Of a DNA stretch of 64,000 nt, positions 1-61,057 are shown one piece after another. The position numbers were made by a program, and so were the translations under genes. Where the stretch lies: the NCBI GenBank assembly GCA_009914755.4, contig CP068257.2:7328001-7392000 (forward strand), written 5' to 3'. Source of the DNA: the human T2T-CHM13v2.0 reference genome, Homo sapiens. The notes under the pieces were generated by a model that had not been told where the DNA came from, did no database searches, and was given only the letters and a program-made list of their open reading frames with translations. Each line of letters begins with the position of its first letter. The stretch's first letter is position 1.

Positions 1-3000
1 AATGGAATGGAATGGAATGGAATGGAGTGGAATGGAATGGAATTGAATGGAATGGAATGGAATGGAAAGGAATCAACCTGGATGGAATGGAATGGAATGG
101 AATGGAATGGAAAGGAATCAACCCGAGTGGAAGGGAATGGAATGGAATTCAATGGAATGAAATGGAATGGGATGGTATGGAATCAACCCGAGTGGAATAT
201 TATCGAATGAAATGGAATGGAATGGGATGGTATGGAATCAACCCGAGTGGAATATTATCGAATTAAATGGAATGGAACGGAATGGAATGGAATAAAATGC
301 AATGGAATGGAATGGAATCAACCAGAGTGGAATGGAATATAATGGAATGGAATGGAATTAAATCGAGAGGAACAGAATGGAATCAACACGAGTGGAATGG
401 AATGGAATGGAATGGAATGGAATCAACCCGAGTGGAATGGAATGGAATGGAATGCAATGGAATGAAGCGGAATATAATGCAATGGAATGGAAACATCCCG
501 AGTGGAATGGAATGGTATGGAATGCAACGGAACGGAATGGAACAGAACGGAATGGAATGGAACGGAATAGATTGAATCAGAAAGGAATTGAATGCAGAGG
601 AATGGATTGGAATGGAATGCAATGGATTCAACCCTAGTTGAATGTCATGGATTGGAAAGGAATGGAATGGAACGGAATGGAATGGAATGGAGTGGAATGG
701 AATGGAATGGAGTGGAATGAAATGGTGTGGAATCAACACGAATGGAAAGGAACGAAATGGAATGGAATGGAATGGAATGGAATGGAATGGAATGGAATGG
801 AATGGAAACAACACGAATAGAATGGAACGGAATGGAATGGAATGCTGTGGAATGGAATGGAATGGAAAGGAATCAACCCGAGTGGAATGAAATGGAATGT
901 AATGCAATGGAATGGAGCGGAATCAACCTGAGTCAAATGCAATGGAATGGAATGGAATGGAGTGGAATGGAATGGAATGGAATGGAATGGAGTGGAATGG
1001 AATGGAATGGAATGGAATGGAATGGAATGGAATGGAACGGAATGGAATCCAATGGAATCAACTGGAATGGAATAGCACAGAATGGAATGGAATGGAATGG
1101 AATCAATCCGGGTGGAATGGAATGGAATGTATGGAGTGGAATGGAATGGAATGGAGTGGAATGGAATGGAATGGAATGCAGCGGAATTTAATGGAACGGA
1201 ATCAAGCCGAATGGAATGGAACGGAATGGAGTGGAAAGGAATGGAATGGAATGGAATGGAATGGAATGGAATGGAATGGAATGGAATCAACCTGAATAGG
1301 ATGGAATGGAATGGAATGGAATGGAATGGAATACAATGGAATGCTATGGAATAAACCCGAGTGTAATGGAAATGCATGGAATGGAATGGAATGGAATGGA
1401 ATGGAATGGAATCAACCCAAGTGCAATGGAATGGAATGGAATGCAATGGTATCAACCCGAGTGGAATGGAATGGAAAGGAATGAAATGAAATGGAATGGA
1501 AAGGAATGGAATGGAATCAACCCGAATGGAATGGAATGGAATGGATTGGAAAGTAAAGAATGGAATGGAATGGAATGGATTGGAATGGAATGGTATGGAA
1601 TCAACCCGAGTGGAATGGAATGGACAGGAATGGAATAGAATGGAATGGGATGGAATGGAATGCAATGGAATGGAAAGGAATGGTACGGAATGGAACGGAA
1701 TGGAATAGAATGAACACGAATGGAATGGAATGGAAAGGAATGGATTGGAATGGAATGGAATGGAATCAACCCGAGTGGAACGGAATGTAATGAAATGGAG
1801 TGGAATGGAAAGGAATGGAATGGAATGGAATGAACACGAATGGAATGGAATGGAATGCAATGGAATGGAATGGAATGGAATGGAATGGAATGGTATGGAA
1901 TCAACCCGAGTGGAATGGAATGGACAGGAATGGAATAGAATGGAATGGGATGGAATGGAATGCAATGGAATGGAATGGAATAGAAAGGAATGGTACGGAA
2001 TGGAACGGAATGGAATAGAATGAACACGAATGGAATGGAATGGAAAGGAATGGATTGGAATGGAATGGAATGGAATCAACCCGAGTGGAACGGAATGTAA
2101 TGGAATGGAGTGGAATGGAATGGAATGGAATGGAATGGAATGGAATGGAATGGAATGGAATCAACACGAATGGAATGGAATGGCATGGAATGGAAGGGAA
2201 TGGAATGAAATGGAATCAACCCTAGTGGAATGGAATGGAATGGAGTTTAATGGAATGGAATAGAATAGATTGGTATGGAATCAACCCGAGAGGAATGGTA
2301 TGGAATGGAATGCAATGGAATGGAATGGAATGCAACAAAATGGAATGGAATGGAATGGTATCAACCCGTGTGGAAGGGAATGGAATGGAATGGAATCAAC
2401 CGGAGTGGAATGGAATGGAATGGAGTGGAATGGAATGGAATGCAATGAAATGGAAAGGAACGGAATTTAATCACCCCGAGTGGAATGGAATAGAATGGAA
2501 TGGAAAGGAATGGAATCAACCCGAGTGGAATGGAATGGAATGGAATGGAATGGAATGCAATGGAATCAACCAGAGTGGAAAGGAATAGAATGGAATGGAT
2601 TATAATGCAATGGAATGGAATCAATCCTGGTGGAATGGAACGGAATGGCATGGAGTGGAATGGAACGGAATGGAATGGAATGGAATGGAATGGAATGGAA
2701 TGGAATGGAAAGGAATCAACCCGAAAGGAATGGAATGGAATGAAATGGAAAGGAATGGAATGCAATGGATTGGAATGGAATGAAATGGATTCAACCCGAA
2801 TGGAATGGAATGGAATGGAATGGAATGTTATATAATCAACACGAGTGGAATGAAATGAATGGAAAGAAATGGAATGGAATGCAATGGAATGGAATGGAAT
2901 GGAATGGAATGGAATGGAATGGAATCAACCCGAATGGAATTGAATGGAAAGGAATGGAATGGAATGGATTGGAATGGAATGGAATGGAATGGAATGGAAT

Positions 3001-6000
3001 GGAGTGGAATGGAATGGAATGGAATCATCCCGAGTGGAATGGAATGGTATGGAATGCAATGGAATGGAATGGAACAGAATGGAAAGGAATGGAATGGAAT
3101 AGATTGAATCTGAGAGGAATTGACTGGAGTGGAATGGATGGAAATGGAATGCAAGGGATTCAACCCAGTTGAATGTCATGGATTGGAAAGGAGTGGAATG
3201 GAATGGAATGGAAAGGAGTGGAATGGAATGGAATGGAATCAACACGAATGGAATGGAACGGAATGGAATGGAATGGAATGGAATGGAATGGAATGGAAAC
3301 AACACGAATGGAATGGAACGGAACGGAATGCAATGGAATGCTGTGGAATGCAATGAAATAAACACGAATAGAATGGACCGGAATGGAACGGAATGGAATG
3401 GAATGGAATGGAATGCAGTGGAATGGCATGAAATGGAAAGGAACGGAATGGAATTAACCCAAGTGGAACGGAATGGAATGGAAAGGAATCAACCCGAGTG
3501 GAATGAAATGGAATGGAATGCAATGGAATGGAGCAGAATCAATCTGAGTCTAATGCAATGGAATGGAAGGGAATGGAGTGGAATGGAATGGAATGGAATG
3601 GAATGGAATGGAATGGAATGGAACGGAATAGAATCCAATGGAATCAACTGGGATGGAATAGCATAGAATGGAATGGAATGGAATGAAATCAATCCGGGTA
3701 GAATGGAATGGAATGTATGGAGTGGAATGGAATGGAATGGAGTGGAATGGAATGGAATGGTATGGAATCAACCCGAGTGGAATGGAATTGAATGGAATTC
3801 AATGGAATGAAACGGAATATAATGGAATGGATTGGAAACATCCCGAATGGAATGGAATGGTATGGAATGCAATGGAACAGAATGGAAAAGAACGGAATGC
3901 AATGGAACGGAATAGATTGAATCAGAGAGGAATTCAATGGAGAGGAATGGACTGCAATGGAATGCAATGGATTCAAACCTAGTTGAATGTTATGGATTGG
4001 AAAGGAATGGAATGGAATGCAGTGGAATGGAATGGAGTGGAATCAACACGAATGGAATGGAACGGAATGGAATGGAATGGAATGGAATGGAATGGAATGG
4101 AATGGAACGGAATGGAATGGAAAAAACAAGAATAGAATGGAAAGGAATGGAATGGAATGCTGTGGAATGGAATGGAATGGAATGAAATAAACACGAATAG
4201 AATGGAATGGAATGGAATGCAATGGAATGGAATGGAATGGAATGGAGTGAAAGGAAAGGAACGGAATGCAATTAACCTGAGTGGAATTGAATGGAATGGA
4301 AAGGAATGAACCCGAGTGGAATGAAATGTAATGTAATGCAATGGAATGGAGCGGAATCAACCTGAGTGGAATGGAATGGACTGGAATGGAATGGAATGGA
4401 ATGGAATGGAATGGAATGGAATGCAATGGAATGGAATGCAATGGAATGGAATCAACCCGAATGGAATGGAACGAAATGGAATGGAAAGGAATGGAATGGA
4501 ATGGAATGGAATGGAATGGAATTGAATGGAATGGAATCATCCCGAGTGGAATGGAATGGTATGGAATGCAATGGAATGGAATGGAACAGAACAGAAAGGA
4601 ATGGAATGGAATAGATTGAATCCGAGAGGAATTCACTGGAGTTGAATGGATTGGAATGGAATGCAAGGGATTCAACCCAGTTGAATGTCATGGATTGGAA
4701 AGAGTGGAATGAAATGGAATGGAAAGGAGTGTAATGGAATGGAATGAAATCAACACGAATGGAATGGAACGTAAAGGAATGGAATGGAATGGAATGGAAT
4801 GGAATGGCAACAACACGAATGGAATGGAAAGGAAGGGAATGGAATGGAATGCTGTGGAATGGAATGGAATGGAATGAAATAATCACGAATAGAATGGAAC
4901 GGAATTGAACGGAATGGAATGGAATGGAATGGAATGGAATGGAATGGAAAGGAATGGAGTGGAATGGAGTAAACACCAGTGGAATGAAATGGAATCAAAT
5001 GAAATAGAATGGAATGGAATGGAATGGAATGGAATGGAATGGAATGGAATGGAATGAACCCGAATGGAATGGAATGGAATGGAATGGAATGGAATGGAAT
5101 GAAATCAACCCAAGTGGAATGGAACGGAATGGAATGCAATTGAATGGAATGGAAATGAATGGAATCAACTGTAATGGAATTAAGTGGAATGGAATAGAGT
5201 GGAATGGAATGGAATGCCATGGAATCAACCCGAGTTAAATGCAATGAAATGTAATGGAATGGAATGGAATGCAATGGAATGGAATGGAATCAACTCGAGT
5301 GGAGTGGAATAAAATGGAATGGAATGGAATGGAATCCACCCGAGTGGAATGGAATGGAATGGAATGGAATGGAATGGAATGGAATCAACCCGAGAGGAAT
5401 AAAACGGAATAGAATGGAATGGAATCAACCCGAGAGGAACGGAATGGAATGCAATGGAATGGCATCAACCCGAGTGGAATGGAATGGAAAGGAATGGAAT
5501 GGAACAGAACGGAATGCAATGGAATCACCTGGAATGGAATAGAATGGATTGGAATGGAATGGAATGGAATGGTATGGAATCAACCAGAGTGGAATAGTAT
5601 GGAATGGAATGGAATGGAATGCCATAAAATGGAATGTAATGCAATGGAATCCACCCGAGTGGAATTGAATGGAATGGAAGGGAAGGGAACGGAATCTAAT
5701 GATTTTAACCCGAGTGGAATGGAATGGAATGGAAGGAATGGAATCAACCCGAGTGGAATGAAATGGAATGTAATGCAATGGAATGGAGAGGAAAAAACTC
5801 GAATGGAATAGAATGGAATGGAATGGACTGCAATGGAATGGAACGGAATGGAATCCAATGGAAACATCTGGAAAGGAATGGAATGGAATGGAATGGAGTG
5901 GAATGGAATCAATCCGGGTGGAATGGAATGGAATCTAAAGGAGTAGAATGGAATGGAATGGAATGGAATGGAATGGAACGGAATGGAACGAAATGGATTT

Positions 6001-9000
6001 GAATGGCATGGAATGAACCCGAAAGGAATGGAATGGAATGGAATGGAATAGAATGGAATGGAATGAAATGGAATAGAAACAACTGGAGTGGAATGGAATG
6101 TAATGGAATGGAGTGGAATGGAATGGAATTGAATGGAATGGAATGCGATGGAATGGAATCAACCCGATTGGAATGGAATGGAATGGAAAGGAATGGAATG
6201 GAATCAACCAGAGTGGAATGGAATGGAATGGAATGCAATGGAATTGAACAGAATACAATGGAATTGAATGGAGTCATCCCGAGTGGAATGGGATTGTATG
6301 CAATGCAACGGAATGGAATGGAACAGAACGGAATGGAATGGAATCAATAGATTGAATCCGAGTGGAATTGAATGGAATGGAATGGATTGGAATGGAATGG
6401 AATGGATTGGAATGGAAAGCAATGGTTTCAAACCGATTGGAATGTCATGGATTGCAATGGAGTGGAATGGAATGGAATGGAAAGGAATGGACTGGAATGG
6501 AGGAAACACCAGTGGAATGAAAGGGAATGGAATGAAATAGAATGGAATGGAATGGAATGGAATGAACCCGAATGGAATGGAATGGAATGGAAAGAAATCA
6601 ACCCGAGTGGAATGGAACGGATTGGAATGCAATTAAATGGAATGGAAAGGAATGGAAATAAAACGAATGGAATGGAACGGAATGGAAAGGAATGGAATGG
6701 AATGGAATGGAAACAACACGAATGGAATGGAACGGAACGGAATGGAATGGAATGCTGTGGAATGGAATGGAATGGAATGAAATAAACACGAATAGAATGG
6801 AACGGAATGGAATTAACCCGAGTGGAACGGAATGGAATGGAATGGAATGGAATGGAATCCAGCCGAATGGGATGGATTGCAATGGAATGGAATGGAATGG
6901 AATAGAATCAACCCGAATGGAATGGAACGGAATGGAATGAAAAGGAATGGAATGGAAAGGAATGGAATGGAATAGAATGGAATAAACCAGAATGGAATGG
7001 AATGGAATGGATTGGAATGGAATGGAATGGAATGGAATGCTATGGAATCAACAGGAGGGTAATGGAAATGAATGGAATGGAATGGAATGGAATGGAATAA
7101 ACCCAAGTGCAATGGAATGGAATAGAATGCAATGGAATCAACCCAAGTGGAATGGAATAGAAAGGCATGCAATGGAATGGAATGGAAAGCAAAGGAATGG
7201 AATCAACCAGACTGGAATGGAATGGAATGGAAAGGAATGAAGGGAATGGAATGGAATGGAAAGGTATGGAATCAACTCGAGTGGAATGGAATGGAATGGA
7301 ATGGAATGGAATGGAATGGAATGGAATGGAATGGAGTGGAATGGAAGGCAAGGCAATGGAATGGAATGGAATGGAATGGAACGGAACGGAATGGATTTGA
7401 ATGGCATAGAATGAACCCGACTGGAATGGAATGCAATGGAATGGAATGGAATGGAATGGAATGGAATGGAATGGAATGGAAAAGAATCAAATCGAATGGA
7501 ATGGAATGGAATGGAATGGAGTGGAATGGAATGGAATTGAATGGAATGGAATGGAATGGAAAGGAATCAACCCGGATGGAATGGAATGGAATGGAATGGA
7601 ATGGAATGGAATGGAATGGAATCAAACCGAGTGGAATGGAATGGAATGGAATTCAATGGAATGAAATGGAATGGGATGGTATGGAATCAACCCGAGTGGA
7701 ATATTATCGAATGAAATGGAATGGAATGGGATGGTATGGAATCAACCCGAGTGGAATATTATCGAATTAAATGGAATGGAACGGAATGGAATGGAATAAA
7801 ATGCAATGGAATGGAATGGAATCAACCAGAGTGGAATGGAATATAATGGAATGGAATGGAATTAAATCGAGAGGAACAGAATGGAATCAACACGAGTGGA
7901 ATGGAATGGAATGGAATGGAATGGAATCAACCCGAGTGGAATGGAATGCAATGGAATGAAGCGGAATATAATGCAATGGAATGGAAACATCCCGAGTGGA
8001 ATGGAATGGTATGGAATGCAACGGAATGGAATGGAACAGAACGGAATGGAATGGAACGGAATAGATTGAATCAGAGAGGAATTGAATGCAGAGGAATGGA
8101 TTGGAATGGAATGCAATGGATTCAACCCTAGTTGAATGTCATGGATTGGAAAGGAATGGAATGGAACGGAATGGAATGGAATGGAGTGGAATGAAATGGT
8201 GTGGAATCAACACGAATGGAAAGGAACGAAATGGAATGGAATGGAATGGAATGGAATGGAATGGAATGGAATGGAATGGAATGGAAACAACACGAATAGA
8301 ATGGAACGGAATGGAATGGAATGCTGTGGAATGGAATGGAATGGAAAGGAATCAACCCGAGTGGAATGAAATGGAATGTAATGCAATGGAATGGAGCGGA
8401 ATCAACCTGAGTCAAATGAAATGGAATGGAGTGGAATGGAGTGGAATGGAATGGAATGGAATGGAATGGAATGGAATGGAACGGAATGGAATCCAATGGA
8501 ATCAACTGGAATGGAATAGCACAGAATGGAATGGAATGGAATGGAATCAATCCGGGTGGAATGGAATGGAATGTATGGAGTGGAATGGAATGGAATGGAG
8601 TGGAATGGAATGGAATGGAATGCAGCGGAATTTAATGGAACGGAATCAACCCGAATGGAATGGAACGGAATGGAGTGGAAAGGAATGGAATGGAATGGAA
8701 TGGAATGGAATGGAATGGAATCAACCTGAATAGGATGGAATGGAATGGAATGGAATGGAATACAATGGAATGCTATGGAATAAACACGAGTGTAATGGAA
8801 ATGCATGGAATGGAATGGAATGGAATGGAATGGAATCAACCCAAGTGCAATGGAATGGAATGGAATGCAATGGTATCAACCCGAGTGGAATGGAATGGAA
8901 AGGAATGAAATGAAATGGAATGGAAAGGAATGGAATGGAATCAACCCGAATGGAATGGAATGGAATGGAATGGAATGGAAAGTAAAGAATGGAATGGAAT

Positions 9001-12000
9001 GGAATGGATTGGAATGGAATGGTATGGAATCAACCCGAGTGGAATGGAATGGACAGGAATGGAATAGAATGGAATGGGATGGAATGGAATGCAATGGAAT
9101 GGAAAGGAATAGTACGGAATGGAACGGAATGGAATAGAATGAACACGAACGGAATGGAATGGAAAGGAATGGATTGGAATGGAATGGAATGGAATCAACC
9201 CGAGTGGAACGGAGTGTAATGAAATGGAGAGGAAAGGAAAGGAATGGAATGGAATGGAATAAACACGAATGGAATGGAATGGAATGGAATGGAATGGAAT
9301 GGAATGGAATGGTATGGAATCAACCCGAGTGGAATGGAATGGACAGGAATGGAATAGAATGGAATGGGATGGAATGGAATGCAATGGAATGGAATGGAAT
9401 AGAAAGGAATGGTACGGAATGGAACGGAATGGAATAGAATGAACACGAATGGAATGGAATGGAAAGGAATGGATTGGAATGGAATGGAATGGAATCAACC
9501 CGAGTGGAACGGAATGTAATGGAATGGAGTGGAATGGAATGGAATGGAATGGAATGGAATGGAATGGAATCAACACGAATGGAATGGAATGGCATGGAAT
9601 GGAAGGGAATGGAATGAAATGGAATCAACCCTAGTGGAATGGAATGGAATGGAGTTTAATGGAATGGTATAGAATAGATTGGTATGGAATCAACCCGAGA
9701 GGAATGGTATGGAATGGAATGCAATGGAATGGAATGGAATGCAACAAAATGGAATGGAATGGAATGGTATCAACCCGAGTGGAAGGGAATGGAATGGAAT
9801 GGAATCAACCGGAGTGGAATGGAATGGAATGGAGTGGAATGGAATGGAATGCAATGAAATGGAAAGGAACGGAATTTAATCACCCCGAGTGGAATGGAAT
9901 AGAATGGAATGGAAAGGAATGGAATCAACCCGAGTGGAATGGAATGGAATGGAATGGAATGGAATGGAATGGAATGGAATGGAATCAACCTGAGTGGAAT
10001 GGAATGGAATGGAATGGAATGGAATGGAATGAACACGAGTGGAATGGAATAGAATGAAATGCAATGGAATGAAATGGAATGCAATGGAATGGAATGGAAT
10101 GCAAGGCATTGGAATCAACTGGAATGGAATGGAATGCAATGGAATGGAATGGAATGCAATGGAATCAACCAGAGTGGAAAGGAATAGAATGGAATGGATT
10201 ATAATGCAATGGAATGGAATCAATCCTGGTGGAATGGAACGGAATGGCATGGAGTGGAATGGAACGGAATGGAATGGAATGGAATGGAATGGAATGGAAT
10301 GGAATGGAAAGGAATCAACCCGAAAGGAATGGAATGGAATGAAATGGAAAGGAATGGAATGCAATGGATTGGAATGGAATGAAATGGATTCAACCCGAAT
10401 GGAATGGAATGGAATGGAATGGAATGTTATATAATCAACACGAGTGGAATGAAATGAATGGAAAGAAATGGAATGGAATGCAATGGAATGGAATGGAATG
10501 GAATGGAATGGAATCAACCCGAATGGAATTGAATGGAAAGGAATGGAATGGAATGGATTGGAATGGAATGGAATGGAATGGAATGGAATGGAGTGGAATG
10601 GAATGGAATGGAATCATCCCGAGTGGAATGGAATGGTATGGAATGCAATGGAATGGAATGGAACAGAACGGAAAGGAATGGAATGGAATAGATTGAATCT
10701 GAGAGGAATTGACTGGAGTGGAATGGATGGAAATGGAATGCAAGGGATTCAACCCAGTTGAATGTCATGGATCGGAAAGGAGTGGAATGGAATGGAATGG
10801 AAAGGAGTGGAATGGAATGGAATGGAATCAACACGAATGGAATGGAACGGAATGGAATGGAATGGAATGGAATGGAATGGAATGGAATGGAATGGAATGG
10901 AATTGAATGGAATGGAAACAACACGAATGGAATGGAACGGAACGGAATGCAATGGAATGCTGTGGAATGCAATGAAATAAACACGAATAGAATGGACCGG
11001 AATGGAACGGAATGGAATGGAATGGAATGGAATGCAGTGGAATGGCATGAAATGGAAAGGAACGGAATGGAATTAACCCGAGTGGAACGGAATGGAATGG
11101 AAAGGAATAAACCCGAGTGGAATGAAATGGAATGTAATGCAATGGAATGGAGCAGAATCAATCTGAGTCTAATGCAATGGAATGGAAGGGAATGGAGTGG
11201 AATGGAATGGAATGGAATGGAATGGAATGGAATGGAATGGAACGGAATAGAATCCAATGGAATCAACTGGGATGGAATAGCATAGAATGGAATGGAATGG
11301 AATGAAATCAATCCGGGTAGAATGGAATGGAATGTATGGAGTGGAATGGAATGGAATGGAGTGGAATGGAATGGAATGGTATGGAATCAACCCGAGTGGA
11401 ATGGAATTGAATGGAATTCAATGGAATGAAACGGAATATAATGGAATGGATTGGAAACATCCCGAATGGAATGGTATGGAATACAATGGAATAGAATGGA
11501 AAAGAACGGAATGCAATGGAACGGAATAGATTGAATCAGAGAGGAATTCAATGGAGAGGAATGGACTGCAATGGAATGCAATGGATTCAAACCTAGTTGA
11601 ATGTTATGGATTGGAAAGGAATGGAATGGAATGCAGTGGAATGGAATGGAGTGGAATCAACACGAATGGAATGGAACGGAATGGAATGGAATGGAATGGA
11701 ATGGAATGGAATGGAACGGAATGGAATGGAAAAAACACGAATAGAATGGAACGGAATGGAATGGAATGCTGTGGAATGGAATGGAATGGAATGAAATAAA
11801 CACGAATAGAATGGAATGGAATGGAATGCAATGGAATGGAATGGAATGGAATGGAGTGAAAGGAAAGGAACGGAATGCAATTAACCTGAGTGGTATTGAA
11901 TGGAATGGAAAGGAATGAACCCGAGTGGAATGAAATGTAATGTAATGCAATGGAATGGAGCGGAATCAACCTGAGTGGAATGGAATGGAATGGAATGGAA

Positions 12001-25300: not shown

Positions 25301-25400
25301 AGTGGAATGGAATGTAATGTAATGGAATGGAATGAAAATAATTGAATGGAATTTAAGCAACCTGAGCGGAATGGAATGCAAAGGAATTGAAAGGAATGAA
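16300..25400 (+). repeat. HSat3-like divergent subfamily, block B; ~6.1 kb periodicity with an internal ~320-bp tandem sub-repeat
   Basis: The GGAAT background carries block-specific variants: CAACCGTGTGGAATG, AATCAACTCGATTGG and GGAGTCACCTCGAGGGGAAAGG. The last appears at 18011, 18301, 18651 and 24197. Segments recur at +6100 to +6180: 16317–16580 vs 22416–22694, 16735 vs ~22865, 17264 vs 23413, and 17519 vs 23778. A ~320-bp unit is triplicated across ~17940–18760; ORF 18132–18419 corresponds to the repeat starting at 18451. Confidence 0.8.
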
Positions 25401-51000: not shown

Positions 51001-54000
51001 AAGTTGAATGTCATGGATTGGAAAGGAGTGGAATGAAATGGAATGGAAAGGAGTGGAATGGAATGGAATGGAATCAACACGAATGGAATGGAACGGAATG
51101 GAATGGAAACAATACTAATGGAATGGAAGGGAATGGAATGGAATTAAATGCTGTGGAATGGAATGGAATGGAATGAAATAAACACGAATAGAATGGAACG
51201 GAATGGAATGGAAAGGAATGGAATGGAATGAAATGGAAAGAAACGGAATGGAATTAACCCGACTGGAACGGAATGGAATGGAAAGGAATCAATCCGAGTG
51301 GAATGAAATGGAATATAATGCAATGGAATGGAGCAGAATCAACCTGAGTCGAATGCAATGGAATGGAATGGAAAGGAGTGGAATTGAATGGAATGGAATG
51401 GAATGGAATGGAATGGAATGGAATGGAATGCTATGGAATCAACCCGAGTGGAATGGAACGGAATGGAATGGAGTGGAATGGAATGGAATTGAATGGAGTG
51501 GAATGGAATGGAATGGAATGGAATGGAATGGAATGGAATGGATTGGAATAGAATGGAGTGGAATCAACACGAATGTAATGGAATGGAATGGAACGGAATT
51601 GAATGGAATGGAATGGAAACAACACGAATAGAATGGAACGGAATGGAATGGAATGCTGTGGAATGGAATGGAATGGAATGAAAGAAACACAAATAGAATG
51701 GAACGGAATGGAATGGAATGGAATGGAATGGAATGGAATGGAATGCTATGGAATCAACCCGAGTGTAATGGAAATGAAATGAATGGAATGGAATGGAATG
51801 GAATGGAATGGAATAGAATGGAATCAACCCAAGTGCAACGGAATGGAATAGAATGCTATGGAATCAACCCGAGCGGAATGGAATAGAAAGGCATGCAATG
51901 GAATGGAATGGAAAGCAATGGAATGGAATCAACCCGACTGGAATGGAAAGGAATGGAAAGTAATGAAGGGAATGGAATGGAATTGAAAGGTATGGAATCA
52001 ACCCGAGTGGAATGGAATGGAATGGAAGGGAATGGAATGGAATGGAGTGGAATGGAAGGCAATGCAATGGAATGGAATGGCATGGAATGGAACTGAACGG
52101 AATGGAATTGAAATGCATAGAATGAACCCGAATGGAATGGAATGGAATGGAATGGAATGGAATGGAATATAATCAACTCGAGTGGAATGTAATGGAATGG
52201 AATGGACCGGAATGGAATGGAATATAATCAACTCGAGTGGAATGGAATGGAATGGAATGGAGTGGAATGGAATGGAATTGAATGGAATGGAATGGAATGG
52301 AATGGAATGGAATGGAATGGAATCAGCCTGAATGGAATGGAATGGAATGGAATGGAATGGAATGGAATCAGCCTGAATGGAATGGAATGGAATGGAATGG
52401 AATGGAATGGAATGGCATGGAATCAAACCGAGTGGAATGGAATGGAATGGAATTCAATGGAATGGAATGGAATGGAATGGTATGGAATCAACACGAGTGG
52501 AATATTATCGAGTGGAATGGAATGGAACGGAATGGAATGGAATAAAATGTAATGGAATGGAGTGGAATCAACCAGAGTGGAATGGAATGGAATGGAGTGG
52601 AATGGTATATAATGGAATGGAATGGAATTAAATAGAAAGGAACGGAATGGAATCAACACGAGTGGAACGGAATGGAATGGAAAGGAATCAACCCGAGTGG
52701 AATGAAATGGAATGTAATGCAACGAAATGGAGCGGAATAAACCTGAGTCGAATGCAATGCAATGGAATGGAAAGGAGTGGAATGGAATGGAATGGAATGG
52801 AATGGAATGGAATGGAACGGAATGGAATGCTATGGAATCAACCCGAGTGGAATGGAATGGAATGGAATGGAGTGGAATGGAATGGAATTGAATGGAGTGG
52901 AATGGAATGGAATGGAATGGAATTGAATTGAATGGATTGGATTGGAGTAGAATGGAGTGGAATCAACACGAATGTAATGGAATGGAATGGAATGGAATGG
53001 AACGGATTGGAATTGAATGGAATGGAACGGAAACAACACGAATAGAATGGAACGGAATGGAATGGAATGCTGTGGAATGGAATGGAATGGAATGAAATAA
53101 ACACAAATAGAATGGATCGGAATGGAATGGAATGGAATGGAATGGAATGGAATGGAATGGAGTGAAATGGAAAGGAACGGAATGGAATTAACCCAAGTGG
53201 AATTGAATGGAATGGAAAGGAATCAACCCGAGTGGAATGAAATGGAATGTAATGCAATGGAATGGAGCGGAATCAACCTGAGGGGAATGGAATGGAATGG
53301 AATGGAATGGAATGGAATGGAATGCAATGGAATGGAATGGAATGGAATCAACCCGAATGGAATTGAAAGGAATGGAATGGGAAGGAATGGAATGGAATGG
53401 AATGGAATGGAATAGAATGGAATCAACCAGAATGGAATGGAATGGTATGGAGTGGAATTGAATGGAATGGAATGGAATGGAATCATCCCGAGTGGAATGG
53501 AATGGTATGGAATACAATAGAATGGAATGGAACAGAATGGAAAGAAATGGAATGGAATAGATTGAATCCGAGAGGAATTGACTGGATTGGAATGGATTGG
53601 AATGGAATGCAAGGGATTCAACCCAGTTGAATGTCATGGATTGGAAAGGAGTGGAATGGAATGGAATGGAAAGGAGTGGAATGGAATGCAATGAAATCAA
53701 CACGAATGGAATGGAACGGAATGGAATGGAATGGAATGGAAACAACACTAACGGAATGGAATGGAACGGAATGGAATAGAATGCTGCGGAATGGAATGGA
53801 ATGGAATGAAATAAACACGAATAGAATGGAATGGAATGGAATGGAAAGGAATGGAATGGAATGGAATGGAATGGAATGGAATGCAATGAAATGGAAAGGA
53901 ATGGAATGGAATTAACCCGAGTGGAACGGAATGGAATGGAAAGGAATCAATCCGAGTGGAATGAAATGGAAAGTAATGCAATGGAATGGAGCGGAAACAA

Positions 54001-57000
54001 CCTGAGTCGAATGCAATGGAATGGAATGGAAAGGAGTGGAATGGAATGGAATGGAAAGGAATGGAATGGAATGGAACAGAATGGAATCCAATGGAATCAA
54101 CTGGAATGGAATAGCATAGAATGGAATGGAATAGAATGGAATCAACCAGAACGGAATGGAATGGAATGGAATGGAATGTTATGGAATGGAATGGAATGCT
54201 ATGGAATCAACACGAGTGTAATGGAAATGAATGGAATGGAATGGAATGGAATGGAATGGAATGGAATGGATTGGAATGGAATGGAATCAACCCAAGTGAA
54301 AATGAATGGAATAGAATGCAACGGAATCAACCCAGGTGGAATGGAATAGAAAGGCATGCAAATGAATCGAATGGAAAGCAATGGAATGGAATCAACCCGA
54401 CTGGAATGGAAAGGAATGGAAAGGAATGAAGGGAATGGAATGGAATGGAAAGGTATGGAATCAACCAGGGTGGAATGGAAAGGAATGGAATGGAATGGAA
54501 TGGAATGGAATGGAATGGAGTGGAATGGAACGGAATGGAATTGAATGGCATGGAATGAACCCGAATGGAATGGAATAGAATGGAATGGAATGGAATGGAA
54601 TGGAATGGAATAGAAACAACTCGAGTGCAATGGAATGTAATGGAATGGAGTGGAATGGAATGGAGTGGAATGGAATGGAATGGAATGGAATGGAATGGAA
54701 TGGAATCAAACCGAATGGAATGGAATAGAATGGAATGGAATGGAACGGAATGGAATGGAATGGAATGGAATCAACCCGAATGGAATGGAACGGAATGGAA
54801 TGGAATGGAATGGAATGGAATAGAATGGAATCAACCAGAATGGGATGGGATGGAATGGAATGGAATGGAATGGAATGGAATGGAATGGAATGGAATGTGA
54901 TCCTATTGAATCAACCCGAGTGTAATGAAAATGAATGGAATGGAATGGAATGGAATGGAATCAACCCGAGTGGAATGGAATGGAATGGAATGGAGTTTAA
55001 TGGAATGGAATTGAATGGAGTGGAATGGAATGGAATGGAATGGAATGGAATGGAATGGAATGGAATCAACCCGAATGGAATGGTATGGAATGGAATACCA
55101 TGGAATCAACCCGAGTGGAATGGAATGGAATGGAATTCAATGGAATGGAATGGAATGCAATGGTATGTAATCAACCCGAGTGGAATATTATCGAATGCAA
55201 TGGAATGGAACGGAATGGAATGGAATAAAATGTAATGGAATGGAATGGAATCAACCGGAGTGCAATGGAATGGAATGGAGTGGAATGGAATATAATGGAA
55301 TGGAATGGAATTAAATGGAAAGGAACGGAATGGAATCAACACGAGTGGAATGGAATGGAATGGAATGGAATGGAATGGAATGGAATCAACCCGAGTGGAA
55401 TGGAATGGAATGGAATGCAATGGAATGAAATGTAATATAGTGGAATGGAATGGAAACATCCCGAGTGGAATGGAATGGTATGGAATGCAATGAAACGGAA
55501 TGGAACAGAACGGAATGGAATGGAACGAAATAGAATGAATCAGAGAGGAATTGAATGGAGAGGAATGGATTGGAATGGAATGCAATGGATTCAACGATAG
55601 TTGAATATCATGGATTGGAAAGGAATGGAATGGAATAGAATGGAATTGAATGGAATTGAATGGAATGGAGTGGAATGGAATGCAACGGAATGAAATTGAA
55701 TGGAATTGAATGGAATGGAGTGGAATGGAATGGAATGGAATGGAATGAAGTGGAATGGAATGGAATGGAATGGATTGAAGTGGAATGGAATGGAATGGAG
55801 TGGAATGGAATGGAATGGAATGCAATGGAATGGAATGGAGTGGAATGGAATGGAATGGAATGCAATGGAATGGAATGGAGTGGAATGGAATGGAATGGAA
55901 TGCAATGGAATGGAATGGAATAGAATGGAACGGAATGCAATGCAATGGAATGGAATCAACCCGATTGGAATGGAACGGAATGGAAGGGAAAGGAATGGAA
56001 TGGAATGGAATGGAATGGAATGGAATGGAATGGAAAGGAATGGAATGGAATGGAATGGAATGGAATGGAATGGAATGGAATGGAATGGAGTCATCCCGAG
56101 TGGAATGGAATGGTATGGAATGCAATGGAATGGAATGGAACAGAACGGAAAGGAATGGAATGGAACAGATTGAATCCGAGAGGAATTGACTGCAGTGGAA
56201 TGGATTGGAATTTAATGCAAGGGATTCAACCCAGTTGAATGTCATGGATTGGAAAGGAGTGGAATGGAATGGAATGGAAATGAGTGGAATGGAATGGAAT
56301 GGAATCAACACGAATGGAATGGAACAGAATGGAATGGAATGGAATATAATAGAATGGAATGGAGTGGAATGGAATGGAAACAACACGAATGGAATGGAAC
56401 GGAACGGAGTGGAATGGAATGGTGTGGAATGGAATGGAATGGAATGAAATAAACACGAATAGAATGGAACGGAATGGAATGGAATGGAATGGAATGGAAT
56501 GGAATGGTATGGAATGGAATGGAATGGAATGAAATGGAAAAGAATGGAATGGAATTGACCCGAGTGGAACGGAATGGAATGGAAAGGAATCAACCCGAGT
56601 GGAATGAAATGGAATGTAATGCAATGGAATTGAGTGGAATCAACCTGAGTCGAATGCAATGGAATGGAATGGAATGGAGTGGAATTGAATGGAAAGGAAT
56701 GGAATGGAACGGAATGGAATCCAATGGAATCAACTGGAATGGAATAGCATAGAATGGAATGGAATGGAATGGAATCAATCCGGGTGGAATGGAATGGAAT
56801 GTATGGAGTGGAATGGAATGGAATGGTGTGGAATGGAATGCAGTGGAATTTAATGGAATGGAATCAACCCGAATGGAATGGAATGGAATGGAATGGAAAG
56901 TAATGGAATGGAATGGAATGGAATAGAATGGAATGGAATCAACCGTAATGGGATGGAATGGAATGGAATAGAATGGAATCAACCCGAATGTAATGGAACG

Positions 57001-60000
57001 GAATGGAATGGAAAGAATGGAATGGAATGAATTGGAATGGAATAGAATGGAATCAACCAGAACGGAACGGAACGGAATGGAATGGAATGGAATGGAATGG
57101 AATGGAATGGAATGGAATGGAATGCTATGGAATCAACCCGTGTGTAATGGAAATGAATGGAATGGTATGGAATGGAATGGAATGGAATGGAATGGAATGG
57201 AATGGAATCAACCCAAATGCAATGGAATGGAATAGAATGCAACGGAATCAACCCGAGTGGAATGGAATAGAAAGGCATGCAAAGGAATCGAATGGAAAGC
57301 AATGGAATGGAATCAACCAGACTGGAATGGAATGGAATGGAAAGAAATGAAGGGAATGGAATGGAATGGAAAGGTATGGAATCAACCCGAGTGGAATGTA
57401 ATGGAATGGAGTGGAATGGAACGGAATGGAATTGAATGGCATGGAATGAACCCGAATGGAATGGAATGGAATGGAATGGAATATAATGGAATGGAATGGA
57501 ATAGAAACAACTCGAGTGCAATGGAATGTAATGGAATGGAGTGGAATAGAATGGAATGGAATGGAGTGGAATGTAATGGAATGGAATCAACCCGAATGGA
57601 ATGTAATAGAATGGAAACGAATGGAATGGAATGGAATGGAATGGAATGGAATGGAATGGAATGGAATGGAATCAACCCGAATGGAATGGAACGGAATGGA
57701 ATGGAAAGGAATGGATTGGAATGGAATGGAATGGAATAGAATAGAATCAACCAGAATGGGATGGAATGGAATGGAATGGAATGGAATGTGATCCTATTGA
57801 ATAAACCCGAGTGTAATGAAAATGAACGGAATGGAATGGAATGGAATGGAATGGAATGGAATGGAATGGAATGGAATCAACCCGAGTGGAATGGAATGGA
57901 ATGGAATGGATTTTAATGGAATGGAATTGAATGGAGTGGAATGGAATGGAATGGAATGGAATGGAATGGAATGGATTCAACCCGAATGGAATGGAATGGA
58001 ATGGAATACCATGGAATCAACCCGAGTGGAATGGAATGGAATGGAATTCAATGGAATGGAATGGAATGCAATGGTATGGAATCAACCCGAGTGGAATATT
58101 ATCGAATACAATTGAATGGAACGGAATGGAATGGAATAAAATGTAATGGAATGGAATGGAATCAACCGGAGTGCAATGGAATGGAATGGAGTGGAATGGA
58201 ATATAATGGAATGGAATGGAATTAAATGGAAAGGAACGGAATGGAATCAACACGAGTGGAATGGAATGGAATGGAATGGAAATGGAATCAACCCGAGTGG
58301 AATGGAATGGAATGGAATGCAATGGAATGAAACGTAATATAGTGGAATGGAATGGAAAAATCCCGAGTGGAATGGAATGGTATGGAATTCAATGGAACGG
58401 AATGGAACAGAACGGAATGGAATGGAACGAAATAGAATGAATCAGAGAGGAATTGAATGGAGAGGAATGGATTGTAATGGAATGCAATGGATTCAACGAT
58501 AGTTGAATATCATGGATTGGAAAGGAATGGAATGGAATGGAATGGAATGGAATGGAATGGAATGGAGTGGAATGGAATAGAATCAACTCGAGTGGAAGGG
58601 AATGTAACGGAATGGAATGGAATGGAATAGAATGGAATGGAATGGAGTGGAATGGAATGTAATGGAGTGGAATGGAATTGAATGGAATGGAATCATCCCG
58701 AGTGGAATGGAATGGTATGGAATGCAATGGAATGGAATGGAAGAGAACGGAAAGGAATGGAATGGAATAGATTGAATCTGAGAGGAATTGACTGGAGTCG
58801 AATGGATTGGAATGGAATGAAAGGGATTCAAGCCAGTTGAATGTCATGGATTGGAGAGGTGTGGAATAGAATGGAATGGAAAGGAGTGGAATTGAATGGA
58901 ATGGAATCAACACGAATGGAATGGAACGGAATGGAATGGAATGGAATGGAATGGAAATAACACGAATGGAATGGAACGGAACGGAATGGAATAGAATGCT
59001 GTGGAATGGAATGGAATGGAATGGAATGAAATAAACACGAATAGAATGGAACGGAATGGAATGGAAATGAATGGAATGGAATGGAATGGAATGGAATGGA
59101 ATGGAATGGAATGCAATGGAATGAAATGGAAAGGAACGGAATGGAATTAACCCGAGTGGAATGGACGGAATGGAATGGAAAGGAATCAACTGGAGTGGAA
59201 TGAAATGAAATGTAATGCAATGGAATGGAGCGGAATCAACCTGAGTTGTATGCAATGGAATGGAATGGAAAGGACTGGAATGGAAAGGAATGGAATGGAA
59301 TGGAATGGAATGGAATGGAATGGAATGGAATGGAACGGAATGGAATCCAATGGAATCAACTGGAATGGAATAGCATAGAATGGAATGGAATGGAATCATC
59401 CCGAGTGGAATGGACTGGTATGGAATGCAATGGAATGGAATGGAATGGAACAGAATGGAAAGGAATGGAATGGATTAGACTGAATCCGAGAGGAATTGAC
59501 TGGAGTGGAATGGATTGGAATGGAATGCAAGGGATTCAACCCAGTTGAATGTCATGGATTGGAAAGGAGTGGAATGGAATGGAATGGAAAGGAGTGGAAT
59601 GGAATGGAATGGAATCAACGAGAATGGAATGGAACGGAATGGATTGGAATGGAATGGAATGGAATGGAATGGAAACAACACGAATGGAATGGAACGGAAT
59701 GGAATGGAATTAAATGCTGTCGAATGGAATGGAATGGAATGAAATAAACACGAATAGAATGGAATGGAACGGAACGGAATGGAATTAAATGCTGTGGAAT
59801 GGAATGGAATGGAATGAAATAAACACGAATAGAATGGAACGGAATGGAATGGAAAGGAATAGAATGGAATGAAATGGAAAGGAACGGAATGGAATTAACC
59901 CGAGTGGAACGGAATGGAATAGAAAGGAATCAATCCGAGTGGAATGAAATGGAATGTAATGCAATGGAATAGAGCAGAATCAACCTGAGTCGAATGCAAT

Positions 60001-60240
60001 GGAATGGAATGGAAAGGAGTGGAATGGAATGGAATGGAATGGAATGGAATGGAATGGAACGGAATGGAATGGAATGGAATGGAATGGAACGGAATGGAAT
60101 GGAATCAACCCGAGTGCAATGGAATGCAATGAAATGGAATGGAATTAACGAGAGTGGCATGGAGTGGAATGGAATAGAATGGTATGGAATGGAATAGAAT
60201 CGAATGGAATCAACTTGAGGGGAAAGGAATAGATTGGAAA
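33050..60240 (+). repeat. HSat3 block D; ~7.35 kb HOR in three-plus copies, the third copy rearranged
   Basis: Offsets of 7341–7376 bp link 34234–34563 to 41685–41939, 36045 to 43386, 36726 to 44117, 37505 to 44866, 38554 to 45915, 40472 to 47838, and 40808 to 48164. The third copy shows a 6462-bp offset (43546 to 50008) and a 10692-bp offset (41164–41484 to 51856–52176; 41510 to 52202; 41685 to 52377). Its internal modules are therefore deleted or permuted relative to copy 2. Confidence 0.85.
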
Positions 60241-60257
60241 GGAATGGAATGGAATAG

Positions 60258-60325
60258 TGAAATGAAATGTGAGCTGAGATTCTGCCTCTGCACTCCAGAC
60301 TGGGTGACAGAGTGAGATCCTGTTG
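60258..60325 (+). mobile_element. Alu 3'-arm fragment (~55 bp), copy 1, embedded in satellite
   Basis: gtgagctgagattctgcctctgcactccagactgggtgacagagtgagatcctg. Confidence 0.75.
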
Positions 60326-61010: not shown

Positions 61011-61057
61011 AGAAATGGAAAGGAATGGAATGGTATTGACTGGAATTATGAAATGAA

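What the first reader, a model, noticed from the sequence alone, without database searches (positions are those of the whole stretch)
1..60240. Mosaic of at least four HOR domains with different periods (7.5, 6.1, 3.6, 7.35 kb) inside one contiguous array
Self-similarity offsets change abruptly at ~16300, ~25400 and ~33050. Blocks A and D share the same module vocabulary, including the landmark GATTCAACCCAGTTGAATGTCATGGATTGGAAAGG. Block B uses a distinct variant set (CAACCGTGTGG, CTCGAGGGGAAAGG). Block C has a 3.6-kb period. Junctions between HOR domains inside a satellite mark historical expansion or rearrangement events. Such junctions are where array-structure polymorphism between haplotypes is usually found.
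Basis: seen in the sequence. Interest (0 to 1): 0.55.

Follow-up and report, generated by a model that had tools for sequence, protein, structure and literature searches.

The report
Patchwork of local duplications in satellite-3
The window is the edge of a primate satellite-3 (GGAAT)n array whose kilobase "periods" come from a few separate two-copy local duplications of different ages; this is real but is ordinary, already described behaviour for this satellite.

Summary
Positions 1-60,250 are one uninterrupted, single-orientation satellite-3 array: 5-bp GGAAT repeat plus the CAACCCGAGT decamer. Collinear self-matches occur at the stated offsets: 7.49-7.62 kb (1-5,000 vs 7,495-12,630), 6.11 falling to 5.6 kb (16,335-19,903 vs 22,444-25,535), 3.57-3.60 kb (25,597-29,189 vs 29,190-32,798) and 7.34-7.44 kb (34,270-40,950 vs 41,640-48,309). 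Further offsets of 6.3-6.5, 10.69, 13.7-13.9 and 2.9 kb were not listed. Paired copies are 93-99.8% identical against an 80-85% background, far above shuffled controls.

The "HOR domain" reading is only partly right. No discrete monomer exists. Each period rests on 2.0-2.07 copies, and 41% of 500-bp windows have no close paralogue. Block A's repeat stops at 12.6 kb, not 16.3 kb. Block D's stops at 48.3/52.8 kb, not 60.2 kb. The two "block B" motifs come from one ~0.3-kb sub-repeat.

The best fit is a nested patchwork of local tandem duplications made by unequal exchange in pentamer runs and then eroded by 5-bp-multiple indels. Altemose et al. already describe this as nested tandem repeats that expand "hyper-locally". 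It is already known and of low interest. Chromosome, species and polymorphism could not be tested.

The parts
1..5000 (+). A1: first copy of the 7.5-kb-offset duplication. It is cut by the window start, so the unit may extend upstream.
   Evidence: 500-bp windows are 93.9-98.4% identical to A2 at offsets 7,494-7,619, except window 3,001-3,500, a landmark-module window that is 91.9% to A2 and has no paralogue at 93% or better. Windowed global alignment falls to background after about 5,000/12,630. Substitution identity is 98.95%, with 21 gaps totalling 387 bp.
5001..7494 (+). Spacer between A1 and A2 with no close paralogue in the window, except a ~460-bp landmark-type piece at 7,001-7,460.
   Evidence: Best non-self identity is 81-83% for 5,001-7,000, which is background level. 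Positions 7,001-7,460 are 93.7% identical to 42,811-43,270.
7495..12630 (+). A2: second copy of the A duplication, carrying a 190-bp insertion at about 9,948.
12631..16334 (+). X: A/D-type satellite with landmark modules but no recent duplicate. It is not part of the 7.5-kb repeat.
   Evidence: No paralogue at 93% or better. Forced alignment to 5,000-7,494 gives 64-84%. Landmark hits lie at 14295, 15537 and 15896.
16335..19903 (+). B1: first copy of the 6.1-kb falling to 5.6-kb offset duplication. It contains 3 tandem copies of a ~300-345-bp sub-repeat at 17,872-18,860.
   Evidence: Chains. 500-bp identity to the cognate B2 copy is 85-94%. Substitution identity is 97.6%, with 294-bp and 289-bp gaps. 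Sub-repeat copies are 92-97.5% identical.
19904..22443 (+). Y: unmatched spacer between B1 and B2. It holds an island of A/D-type landmark modules at 20.0-21.0 kb.
   Evidence: Landmark hits lie at 20083 and 20692. Positions 20,501-21,000 are 94.9% identical to 15,705-16,200, and 21,001-22,443 is at background.
22444..25535 (+). B2: second copy of the B duplication, with only one copy of the ~0.3-kb sub-repeat (24,061-24,411).
25597..29189 (+). C1: first copy of an exact head-to-tail 3.6-kb tandem duplication. It contains an internal ~390-bp doublet.
   Evidence: Most 500-bp windows are 95-99.8% identical to C2 at offsets 3,572-3,603; the three windows spanning a breakpoint (25,501, 29,001, 32,501) are 89-94%. 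Substitution identity is 99.38%. The boundary alignment is and the sub-repeat.
29190..32798 (+). C2: second copy. Homology ends at about 32,798 inside a TTGAATGG(AATGG)n run, the same run that starts both copies.
   Evidence: One search shows that the L/C1, C1/C2 and C2/R junctions share the same pentamer run.
32799..34269 (+). Z: A/D-type satellite between C and D with no recent duplicate.
   Evidence: Best paralogue is 88-89.5%. Identity to the region upstream of D2 is 58-79%.
34270..41718 (+). D1: first copy of the 7,376-bp-offset tandem duplication.
   Evidence: Most 250-column windows are 92-100% identical to D2; a few windows containing indels are lower, 66-90%. Substitution identity is 99.29% over 6,448 bp. 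The left boundary is at about 34,270/41,640.
41719..48309 (+). D2, proximal part: second copy, collinear with D1 as far as 40,950/48,309.
48310..51727 (+). I: extra 3.4 kb inside copy 2. It is an older partial copy of 35,042-38,017 and 41,942-45,388, at offsets 13.7-13.9 and 6.3-6.5 kb.
   Evidence: Chains. It is 97.7-97.8% identical to both D1 and D2 on shared columns. At 58 sites D1=D2 but differs from I, against 16 and 11 sites for the other two patterns. I therefore branched off before D1 and D2 split.
51728..52832 (+). End of copy 2 plus about 0.4 kb of a third start of the unit. It is a 99.7% gap-free copy of the D1/D2 junction region 41,036-42,087.
   Evidence: 1,052 bp at 99.71% with no gaps at offset 10,692. 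Homology ends at about 42,140/52,832.
54126..55634 (+).
   Evidence: Chain 54,126-55,634 to 57,037-58,536. Substitution identity is 96.07%. The top k=6 interval is 2,900 bp.
57037..58536 (+). E2: second copy of the 2.9-kb duplication.
60241..62650 (+). A different satellite variant that caps the array: GGAAT/GGAGT pentamers interrupted by 8 Alu 3'-end fragments. It has no CAAC decamer.
   Evidence: Sequence read. Alu-core hits lie at 60286, 60698, 60965, 61077, 61344, 61841, 62133 and 62409. GGAGT occurs 34.9 times per kb against 4.6 in the main array, and CAACCCGAGT does not occur.
62653..63012 (+). Degenerate L1 ORF2 (reverse transcriptase) fragment abutting the satellite, followed by non-repetitive AT-rich sequence to 64,000.
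   Evidence: The translation contains stop codons. Pfam RVT_1 hit, E = 7.2e-07.

Best explanation
Positions 1-60,250 are the distal end of a primate (most likely human) satellite-3 array. The array is a 5-bp GGAAT repeat with interspersed CAACCCGAGT decamers, all in one orientation.

The kilobase periods are not homogenised multi-copy higher-order repeats. They are traces of at least six separate local duplications of 1.5-7.9 kb of sequence, each present as about two copies.

The proposed mechanism, which is inferred, is out-of-register exchange between short, near-identical pentamer runs a few kilobases apart. This could be unequal sister-chromatid or homologue crossing-over, or template switching during replication or repair. 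It yields L-U-U'-R products. The copies then diverge by point changes and, mainly, by slippage indels in multiples of 5 bp and by copy-number changes of internal 0.3-0.4-kb sub-repeats.

The events are nested and of different ages. By substitution identity the order is:
- 99.7%: the 1-kb D junction copy.
- 99.4%: C.
- 99.3%: D1/D2.
- 98.95%: A.
- about 97.7%: the I segment and B.
- 96%: E.

Beneath these lies an older layer. A ~450-bp landmark module recurs about 32 times at 87-93% identity in the A/D-type parts and is absent from B and C. This is why A and D look alike and B and C look different.

Shown directly: the copies, their coordinates, identities and copy numbers, breakpoints in pentamer runs, the 5-bp indel bias, and the branching order ((D1,D2),I). 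Inferred: the recombination mechanism, the relative dating, and human origin.
For: HSat3 identity:
- TRF calls one 5-bp array with consensus AATGG over 1-62,648.
- Self-match at lag 5 is 0.72, against 0.11 and 0.33 at lags 23 and 26. There are 114 CAACCCGAGT copies and no HSat2 motifs.
- The published definition is 5-bp GGAAT plus 10-bp CAACCCGAGT with strict 5-bp periodicity.

Duplications:
- Offsets and chains.
- Per-window identities.
- Boundaries.
- Identities and gaps.
- Shuffled and Markov controls.

Copy number:
- At 93% or better, 49 of 120 windows have no paralogue, 53 have one, 14 have two and 4 have three or more.
- C is exactly two head-to-tail copies, and all three of its junctions lie in the same TTGAATGG(AATGG)n run.
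- D homology runs about 7.87 kb for a 7.376-kb period, which is 2.07 copies. Both ends lie in pentamer runs.

Divergence and nesting:
- 88 of 97 indels between copies are multiples of 5 bp.
- The sub-repeat count differs between B1 (3 copies) and B2 (1 copy). C's ~390-bp doublet is present in both copies, so it predates the C duplication.
- The branching order is ((D1,D2),I).
- Landmark module and domain k-mer sharing.

Against: - A and B are not head-to-tail within the window. In each, two copies are separated by about 2.5 kb of unmatched sequence. A simple tandem duplication then needs either a unit reaching upstream of the window (A, untestable) or a later deletion or replacement (B). An alternative tandem model for B fitted poorly.
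- D needs a second event, either loss of the 3.4-kb I segment from copy 1 or its gain in copy 2.
- Substitutions between copies show more transversions (165) than transitions (147). This is unusual for neutral mammalian change. It suggests that some 'substitutions' are pentamer-register misalignments or conversion between variant pentamers, so the age ranking is soft.
- Substitution identities depend on the gap penalties used.
- The window starts inside the array, so A could belong to a larger multi-copy series.
- Species and chromosome were not established.
Confidence: 0.83

Rival explanations
1. True higher-order or nested-repeat arrays. Each block would be a homogenised multi-copy array with its own unit length, and the window would merely sample a few units of each.
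For: Domain-specific top periods are real. Copies are much more alike than background. Block A is cut by the window start and could continue upstream.
Against: - B, C and D are bounded inside the window and have 2, 2.0 and 2.07 copies.
- 41% of windows have no paralogue at 93% or better.
- Sequence that should form the rest of a unit (5,001-7,494 vs 12,631-15,300; 19,904-22,443 vs 25,536 onward) is at background identity.
- No discrete monomer exists.
Confidence: 0.07
2. Assembly artefact: false tandem duplications, or mis-joins of haplotypic or paralogous reads within a hard-to-assemble satellite.
For: Satellite arrays are error-prone in assemblies. No read data are available to check this. 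The 1,052-bp gap-free copy at 99.7% is the kind of patch a mis-join could create.
Against: - Copies differ by 0.3-4% in substitutions and by dozens of 5-bp-multiple indels.
- They show a consistent nested genealogy, ((D1,D2),I), with sub-repeats shared by both C copies.
- Breakpoints sit in pentamer runs, as expected for real unequal exchange.
- False duplications are usually near-identical.
Confidence: 0.04
3. Homogenisation by gene conversion rather than duplication. Pre-existing diverged paralogous segments would have been overwritten by one another in long conversion tracts, giving high-identity diagonals without new copies.
For: - The 99.7% patch at 41,036-42,087 vs 51,728-52,779 is flanked on its right by about 91% similarity.
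- An older repeat layer at 87-93% exists that could supply conversion partners.
- The transversion excess hints at non-mutational differences.
Against: - Tracts of 3.6-7.9 kb with sharp ends in pentamer runs, and exact head-to-tail adjacency in C and D, fit duplication better.
- Sequence flanking the C and D copies is at background identity (72-79%), not at older-paralogue level.
Confidence: 0.06

Closest known systems
Nested tandem repeats (NTRs) of human satellites 2 and 3, as defined by Altemose et al. (bioRxiv 10.1101/2021.07.12.452052; published in Science in 2022)
   Same: Kilobase-scale repeat units are superimposed on a diverged (CATTC)n base without discrete monomers. Periodicity changes along one array, and expansions are local. 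The k-mer interval spectra here behave the same way.
   Different: Here each unit is present only about twice in the sampled 60 kb. The word 'array' or 'period' therefore overstates what are single duplication events. The Altemose subfamily could not be assigned: none of the 14 top marker 24-mers matches exactly.
DYZ1 / HSat3A6, the 3.56-kb satellite-3 unit of the human Y chromosome
   Same: It is a satellite-3 pentamer base with a ~3.6-kb repeat length, numerically close to block C.
   Different: DYZ1 is a megabase-scale homogeneous array. Block C is two copies embedded in unrelated satellite-3. The HSat3A6 marker 24-mer has no hit within one mismatch. The similar length is most likely a coincidence.
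Alpha-satellite higher-order repeat arrays with layered expansion
   Same: Inter-unit identity is far higher than background. Distinct variants sit side by side, and junctions record past expansions. A/D-type sequence flanks a different B/C core.
   Different: - Alpha HORs are built from discrete ~171-bp monomers and repeat hundreds to thousands of times.
- Here there is no monomer and only about 2 copies.
- No age gradient from centre to flanks is seen: C 99.4%, D 99.3%, A 98.95%, B 97.6%.
Unequal-crossover model of tandem-repeat evolution (Smith 1976; from my own knowledge)
   Same: It predicts emergent long periodicities, nested duplications of varied size and age, and breakpoints in short homologies. 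All of these are seen.
   Different: It is a general model, not a family, and the exchange itself is inferred here rather than observed.

Membership tests
Human satellite 3 (HSat3) | Imperfect GGAAT/CATTC pentamer repeat with strict 5-bp periodicity | tested here: met
   TRF calls one period-5 array over 1-62,648 with 72% matches. Self-match at lag 5 is 0.72, and 53% of bases lie in exact GGAAT.
Human satellite 3 (HSat3) | Interspersed 10-bp CAACCCGAGT element | tested here: met
   There are 114 exact copies in 1-60,240, or 1.9 per kb. The relaxed pattern CAACN[CT][GA]A has 370 sites.
Human satellite 3 (HSat3) | Not HSat2: no 23/26-bp unit built from ATTCCATTCG x2 plus ATG | tested here: met
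   Self-match at lags 23 and 26 is 0.11 and 0.33. HSat2-type motifs are absent. The three HSat2 marker 24-mers have no hit within 2 mismatches.
Human satellite 3 (HSat3) | Assignment to one of the Altemose 2014 subfamilies (A1-6, B1-5) by subfamily-specific 24-mers | tested here: inconclusive
   Only the single most common marker per subfamily was available, and none matches exactly. One-mismatch hits are few and mixed among A2, A4, B1, B2 and B3. The stored marker list is truncated within HSat2A1.
Human satellite 3 (HSat3) | Pericentromeric or acrocentric location in a human or great-ape chromosome | not testable with these tools
   No primate genome collection is available. Alu and L1 fragments in the flank only indicate a primate.
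Higher-order repeat (HOR) array | Unit made of a fixed number of discrete monomers of similar length | tested here: not met
   The only sub-unit is the 5-bp pentamer. Decamer spacing is irregular: median 110 bp, IQR 65-230, range 30-1,144.
Higher-order repeat (HOR) array | Unit repeated head to tail many times | tested here: not met
   C has 2.0 copies and D has 2.07. A and B each have 2 copies separated by unmatched spacers. 49 of 120 windows have no paralogue at 93% or better.
Higher-order repeat (HOR) array | Identity between units far above identity within the unit | tested here: met
   Copies are 93-99.8% identical against an 80-85% background.
Nested tandem repeat (NTR) of HSat2,3 | Multi-kilobase repeat unit nested on a simple-repeat-derived satellite, with no discrete monomers | tested here: met
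   Units of 2.9-10.7 kb sit on a pentamer base.
Nested tandem repeat (NTR) of HSat2,3 | Copies in tandem (head to tail) | tested here: inconclusive
   This is met for C and for D (with a 3.4-kb length difference). It is not shown for A, where the unit may run off the window, or for B, which has a 2.5-kb unrelated spacer.
Tandem duplication by unequal exchange | Both ends of the duplicated unit lie in the same short homologous sequence | tested here: met
   For C, the TTGAATGG(AATGG)n run is present at 25,597, 29,190 and 32,768-32,798. For D, the boundaries lie in (AATGG)n runs at about 34,270/41,640 and 42,140/52,832.

The most novel reading that the evidence does not exclude
The B-C core (16.3-32.8 kb) lacks the landmark module and shares only background k-mers with the flanking A/D-type sequence. 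It might be a foreign satellite-3 variant that entered an A/D-type array, for example by exchange with another chromosome's array, and then expanded in place. That would be a kilobase-scale analogue of the layered expansion seen in alpha satellite. Its junctions at 16,335, 25,535-25,597 and 32,798-34,270 would then be sites of structural polymorphism between haplotypes.
Probability: 0.12. Interest if true: 0.3.

Novelty: already known. Interest (0 to 1): 0.12.

Why it matters
It matters little beyond careful annotation. The result gives a base-level example of how satellite-3 arrays grow. Single unequal-exchange events of 1.5-7.9 kb occur in pentamer runs, are nested on older modules, and are then eroded by 5-bp slippage. 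This agrees with what the telomere-to-telomere centromere papers report at array scale.

There are two practical consequences:
- An apparent period in a short window of HSat3 can rest on just two copies and should not be called a HOR.
- The breakpoints listed here (29,190; 41,719; 48,309/51,728; 16,335/22,444) are good candidate sites to check for copy-number polymorphism in pangenome assemblies.

Tried and rejected
- A whole-window megablast self-comparison timed out. I replaced it with rare-k-mer chaining and 500-bp-window BLAST.
- The repeat finder was swamped by the pentamer background. Every 300-nt stretch matches more than 4,000 places at 68-79%. It was useful only for showing no inverted repeats.
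- TRF sees only the 5-bp period, because its maximum period is too short.
- Subfamily assignment with the Altemose 2014 top 24-mers gave no exact hit. The stored supplementary marker list is truncated within HSat2A1, so I could go no further.
- I tested a head-to-tail model for B (14,800-19,903 vs 19,904-25,535). It gave only 90% identity with 124 gaps. Only about 0.5 kb (15.8-16.2 kb vs 20.6-21.0 kb) is similar, so I rejected the model.
- I looked for a single older period underlying the A/D-type sequence. None dominates. There is only a weak ~2.6-kb landmark series at 51-59 kb.
- I tested whether the I segment was copied from D2 after the D duplication. It is equidistant from D1 and D2 and branches outside them, so I rejected this.
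- I considered that block C is DYZ1 because of its 3.6-kb length. It has only two copies and no HSat3A6 marker, so I rejected this.
- An Rfam scan of the flank found nothing.
- A fuzzy regex for the full Alu fragment timed out. I replaced it with a 19-mer core search.

Full report
**What the sequence is**

The window reads as (AATGG)n-type satellite from base 1, with frequent AATCAACCCGAGTGG elements. GC content is about 0.41 and GC skew about +0.65, both flat to 60 kb, and they change only in the last 4 kb. TRF reports one 5-bp array (consensus AATGG, 72% matches) over 1-62,648.

Self-match is 0.72 at lag 5 but 0.11 and 0.33 at lags 23 and 26. There are 114 exact CAACCCGAGT copies, and HSat2-type motifs and markers are absent. 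This fits the published definition of human satellite 3: an imperfect GGAAT pentamer plus the CAACCCGAGT decamer with strict 5-bp periodicity. No inverted repeat of 600 bp or more exists, so the array has one orientation.

None of the 14 most common subfamily marker 24-mers of Altemose 2014 matches exactly. The stored full list is truncated. The subfamily, chromosome and species are therefore not established. Alu and L1 fragments in the flank indicate a primate.

**Checking the observation**

I used four approaches:
- Offset histograms of rare 24-mers in 2-kb bins.
- A 1-kb text dot-plot.
- Diagonal chaining of rare 20-mers.
- BLAST of each 500-bp window against the whole window.

- 7,494 rising to 7,619 bp for 1-5,000 vs 7,495-12,630.
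- 6,109 rising to 6,224 bp, then about 5,500-5,640 bp, for 16,335-19,903 vs 22,444-25,535.
- 3,572-3,603 bp for 25,597-29,189 vs 29,190-32,798.
- 7,336-7,436 bp for about 34,270-40,950 vs 41,640-48,309.

Several bands were not described:
- 6.3-6.5 kb (41,942-45,388 vs 48,489-51,710).
- 13.7-13.9 kb (35,042-38,017 vs the same target).
- 10,692 bp (41,036-42,087 vs 51,728-52,779).
- 2.9 kb (54,126-55,634 vs 57,037-58,536).

A k=6 interval spectrum in the style of NTRprism gives the same leading period for each domain.

Cognate windows are 93-99.8% identical. Arbitrary satellite windows are 80-85% identical. The largest offset-bin count is 1,083, against at most 59 in order-8 and order-12 Markov simulations and at most 119 in 100-bp block shuffles. 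The bands are real and far above chance.

The 35-mer landmark occurs exactly 9 times. Its 24-mer core, allowing one mismatch, occurs 32 times. All copies lie in the A-type and D-type parts and the short A/D-like stretches X, Y, Z, E and T. None lies in B1, B2, C1 or C2.

Aligning the 32 sites shows a conserved module of about 450 bp, with about 20 copies at 87% or better. A-type and D-type segments share 23-32% of their distinct 20-mers. B and C share only 10-18% with anything but their own partner copy. So "A and D share a vocabulary; B and C differ" is correct.

CAACCGTGTGG and CTCGAGGGGAAAGG are exclusive to block B, but each occurs only 4 times, at 18.0-18.7 kb and 24.0-24.4 kb. These positions belong to one 300-345-bp sub-repeat, which has three tandem copies in B1 and one in B2. 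They are not a block-wide variant set.

**Anatomy of each block**

*Block C* is the cleanest. It is exactly two head-to-tail copies, 25,597-29,189 and 29,190-32,798, with 99.38% substitution identity. Sequence to the left and right is at background identity. The left edge, the internal junction and the right edge all lie in the same TTGAATGG(AATGG)n run. This is the signature expected of one out-of-register exchange between two short homologous runs 3.6 kb apart. A ~390-bp internal doublet is present in both copies, so it predates the duplication.

*Block D* is collinear from about 34,270/41,640 to 40,950/48,309, with 99.29% identity over 6.4 kb. Homology then resumes at 41,036/51,728 and runs gap-free at 99.71% to 42,087/52,779. 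It ends at about 42,140/52,832. The homologous run is therefore about 7.87 kb for a 7.376-kb period, which is 2.07 copies.

Copy 2 carries an extra 3.4 kb (48,310-51,727), here called I. That segment is itself a partial copy of the unit. On 3,150 shared columns it is 97.8% identical to D1 and 97.7% to D2, whereas D1 and D2 are 99.1% identical to each other. At 58 sites D1=D2 but differs from I, against 16 and 11 sites for the other two patterns. The extra segment is therefore older than the D1/D2 split. The simplest history is a 10.7-kb unit that was duplicated and then lost 3.3 kb from copy 1. This order of events is inferred.

Beyond 52.8 kb only older similarity (92% or less) to the unit is seen, plus the separate 2.9-kb duplication at 96%. 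The 7.35-kb "domain" therefore does not extend to 60,240.

*Block A* consists of 1-5,000 and 7,495-12,630, with 98.95% identity and a 190-bp indel. Neither 5,001-7,000 nor 12,631-16,334 has a paralogue above background; within the spacer only 7,001-7,460 matches elsewhere, at 93.7% to 42,811-43,270. A's repeat thus stops at 12.6 kb, not 16.3 kb. This is compatible with one tandem duplication whose unit starts about 2.4 kb upstream of the window, with copy 2 then spanning 5,001-12,630. That cannot be checked here.

*Block B* consists of 16,335-19,903 and 22,444-25,535, with 97.6% identity. Its 294-bp and 289-bp gaps are sub-repeat copy-number changes. The two copies are separated by 2.5 kb of unmatched sequence. 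That spacer contains an island of A/D-type landmark modules. A head-to-tail model for B did not fit.

**Copy number and the HOR question**

At 93% identity or better, 49 of 120 satellite windows have no paralogue, 53 have one, 14 have two and 4 have three or more. The spacing of the decamer is irregular, with median 110 bp, IQR 65-230 and range 30-1,144. So there is no discrete monomer from which a higher-order unit could be counted.

Two defining features of a HOR array fail: discrete monomers and many tandem units. One is met: inter-unit identity far exceeds background.

Altemose et al. introduced "nested tandem repeats" for exactly this situation in HSat2,3. [quoted passage not shown] The window is a base-level illustration of that statement. 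Most "periods" here are single duplication events.

**Mechanism**

Two observations bear on the mechanism:
- Breakpoints lie in pentamer runs.
- 88 of 97 indels between copies are multiples of 5 bp, ranging from 5 to 294 bp.

I infer unequal sister-chromatid or homologue exchange, or replication or repair template switching, between pentamer runs a few kilobases apart. This is followed by pentamer slippage and sub-repeat gain or loss. It matches the classical unequal-crossover model (Smith 1976, from my own knowledge).

The relative ages from substitution identity are:
- 99.7%: the 1-kb D junction copy.
- 99.4%: C.
- 99.3%: D1/D2.
- 98.95%: A.
- about 97.7%: I and B.
- 96%: E.

This ranking is soft. 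It depends on the gap penalties. Also, differences between copies show 165 transversions against 147 transitions, which suggests that some are register artefacts or conversion between variant pentamers.

No cellular function is implied by the pattern. HSat3 as a class is pericentromeric heterochromatin reported to bind HSF1 and TEAD factors. Nothing here tests that.

**Rival explanations**

- *Multi-copy arrays sampled by the window.* This is contradicted for B, C and D, which are bounded inside the window. It is open only for A.
- *Assembly artefact.* This cannot be excluded without reads. It is unlikely given the 0.3-4% divergence, the many 5-bp-multiple indels and the consistent nested genealogy.
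- *Long gene-conversion tracts instead of duplication.* This is possible for the 1-kb 99.7% patch. It fits C and D poorly, because their flanks are at background identity.

**The flank**

At 60,241 the CAAC-bearing satellite gives way to a GGAAT/GGAGT variant. GGAGT occurs 34.9 times per kb there, against 4.6 in the main array, and the decamer is absent. This stretch is interrupted by 8 Alu 3'-end fragments spaced 112-497 bp apart. It includes a ~379-bp duplication at 99%. GGAAT/GGAGT mixtures are a described satellite-3 composition, and TE fragments inside HSat3 units are reported.

At 62,653 a degenerate L1 ORF2 fragment begins (Pfam RVT_1, E = 7e-7). Non-repetitive AT-rich sequence follows. 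Rfam finds nothing in this flank.

**Verdict**

The phenomenon is already known for HSat2,3, and interest is low.

The most novel reading still open is that the landmark-free B/C core is a foreign satellite-3 variant that entered and expanded inside an A/D-type array. I found no age gradient or clean insertion signature to support it.

Noticed in passing
window 60241-62650: The array is capped by a different satellite variant. GGAAT/GGAGT pentamers without the CAAC decamer are interrupted by 8 copies of a ~70-bp Alu 3'-end fragment (core hits at 60286, 60698, 60965, 61077, 61344, 61841, 62133, 62409). It includes a ~379-bp duplication at 99% identity (about 60,620-61,000 vs 61,000-61,390).
   Followed up: partly
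window 62653-63012, and 63013-64000: A degenerate L1 ORF2 reverse-transcriptase fragment (Pfam RVT_1, with stop codons) directly abuts the end of the pentamer array. The last ~1 kb is non-repetitive AT-rich sequence that could anchor the window to a chromosome.
   Followed up: partly
window, 32 sites from 637 to 59544 (e.g. 3168, 12299, 15896, 20692, 38539, 45900, 53626, 56234): A ~450-bp landmark module around GTTGAATGTCATGGATTGGAAAGG recurs at 87-93% identity in all A/D-type parts and is absent from 16.3-19.9, 22.4-25.6 and 25.6-32.8 kb. It forms an older repeat layer beneath the recent duplications. Common spacings are about 700, 1,250 and 2,600 bp.
   Followed up: partly
window 50992-58825: Landmark copies at 50992, 53615, 56223 and 58825 are spaced 2,623, 2,608 and 2,602 bp apart. 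The matching windows are only 87-89% identical. This looks like a decayed older ~2.6-kb periodicity confined to the right-hand part.
   Followed up: partly
window 41036-42087 vs 51728-52779: A 1,052-bp gap-free copy at 99.71% spans the D1/D2 junction. It is more similar than the surrounding D copies (99.3%) and much more than what follows it (about 91%). It is either the true end of the duplicated unit or a conversion patch.
   Followed up: partly
all paralogous pairs (A, B, C, D, I, E): Differences between duplicated copies show 165 transversions against 147 transitions, the opposite of the usual mammalian bias. 88 of 97 indels are multiples of 5 bp. The transversion excess may reflect pentamer-register misalignment or conversion between variant pentamers.
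   Followed up: no
window 17872-18860 and 24061-24411; 26502-27285 and 30066-30880: There are small nested sub-repeats. A 300-345-bp unit is present 3 times in B1 but once in B2, so it changed after the B duplication. A ~390-bp doublet is present in both C copies, so it formed before the C duplication.
   Followed up: yes
window 20000-21000: An island of A/D-type sequence with two landmark modules sits inside the otherwise distinct B region. Positions 20,501-21,000 are 94.9% identical to 15,705-16,200, just left of B1.
   Followed up: partly
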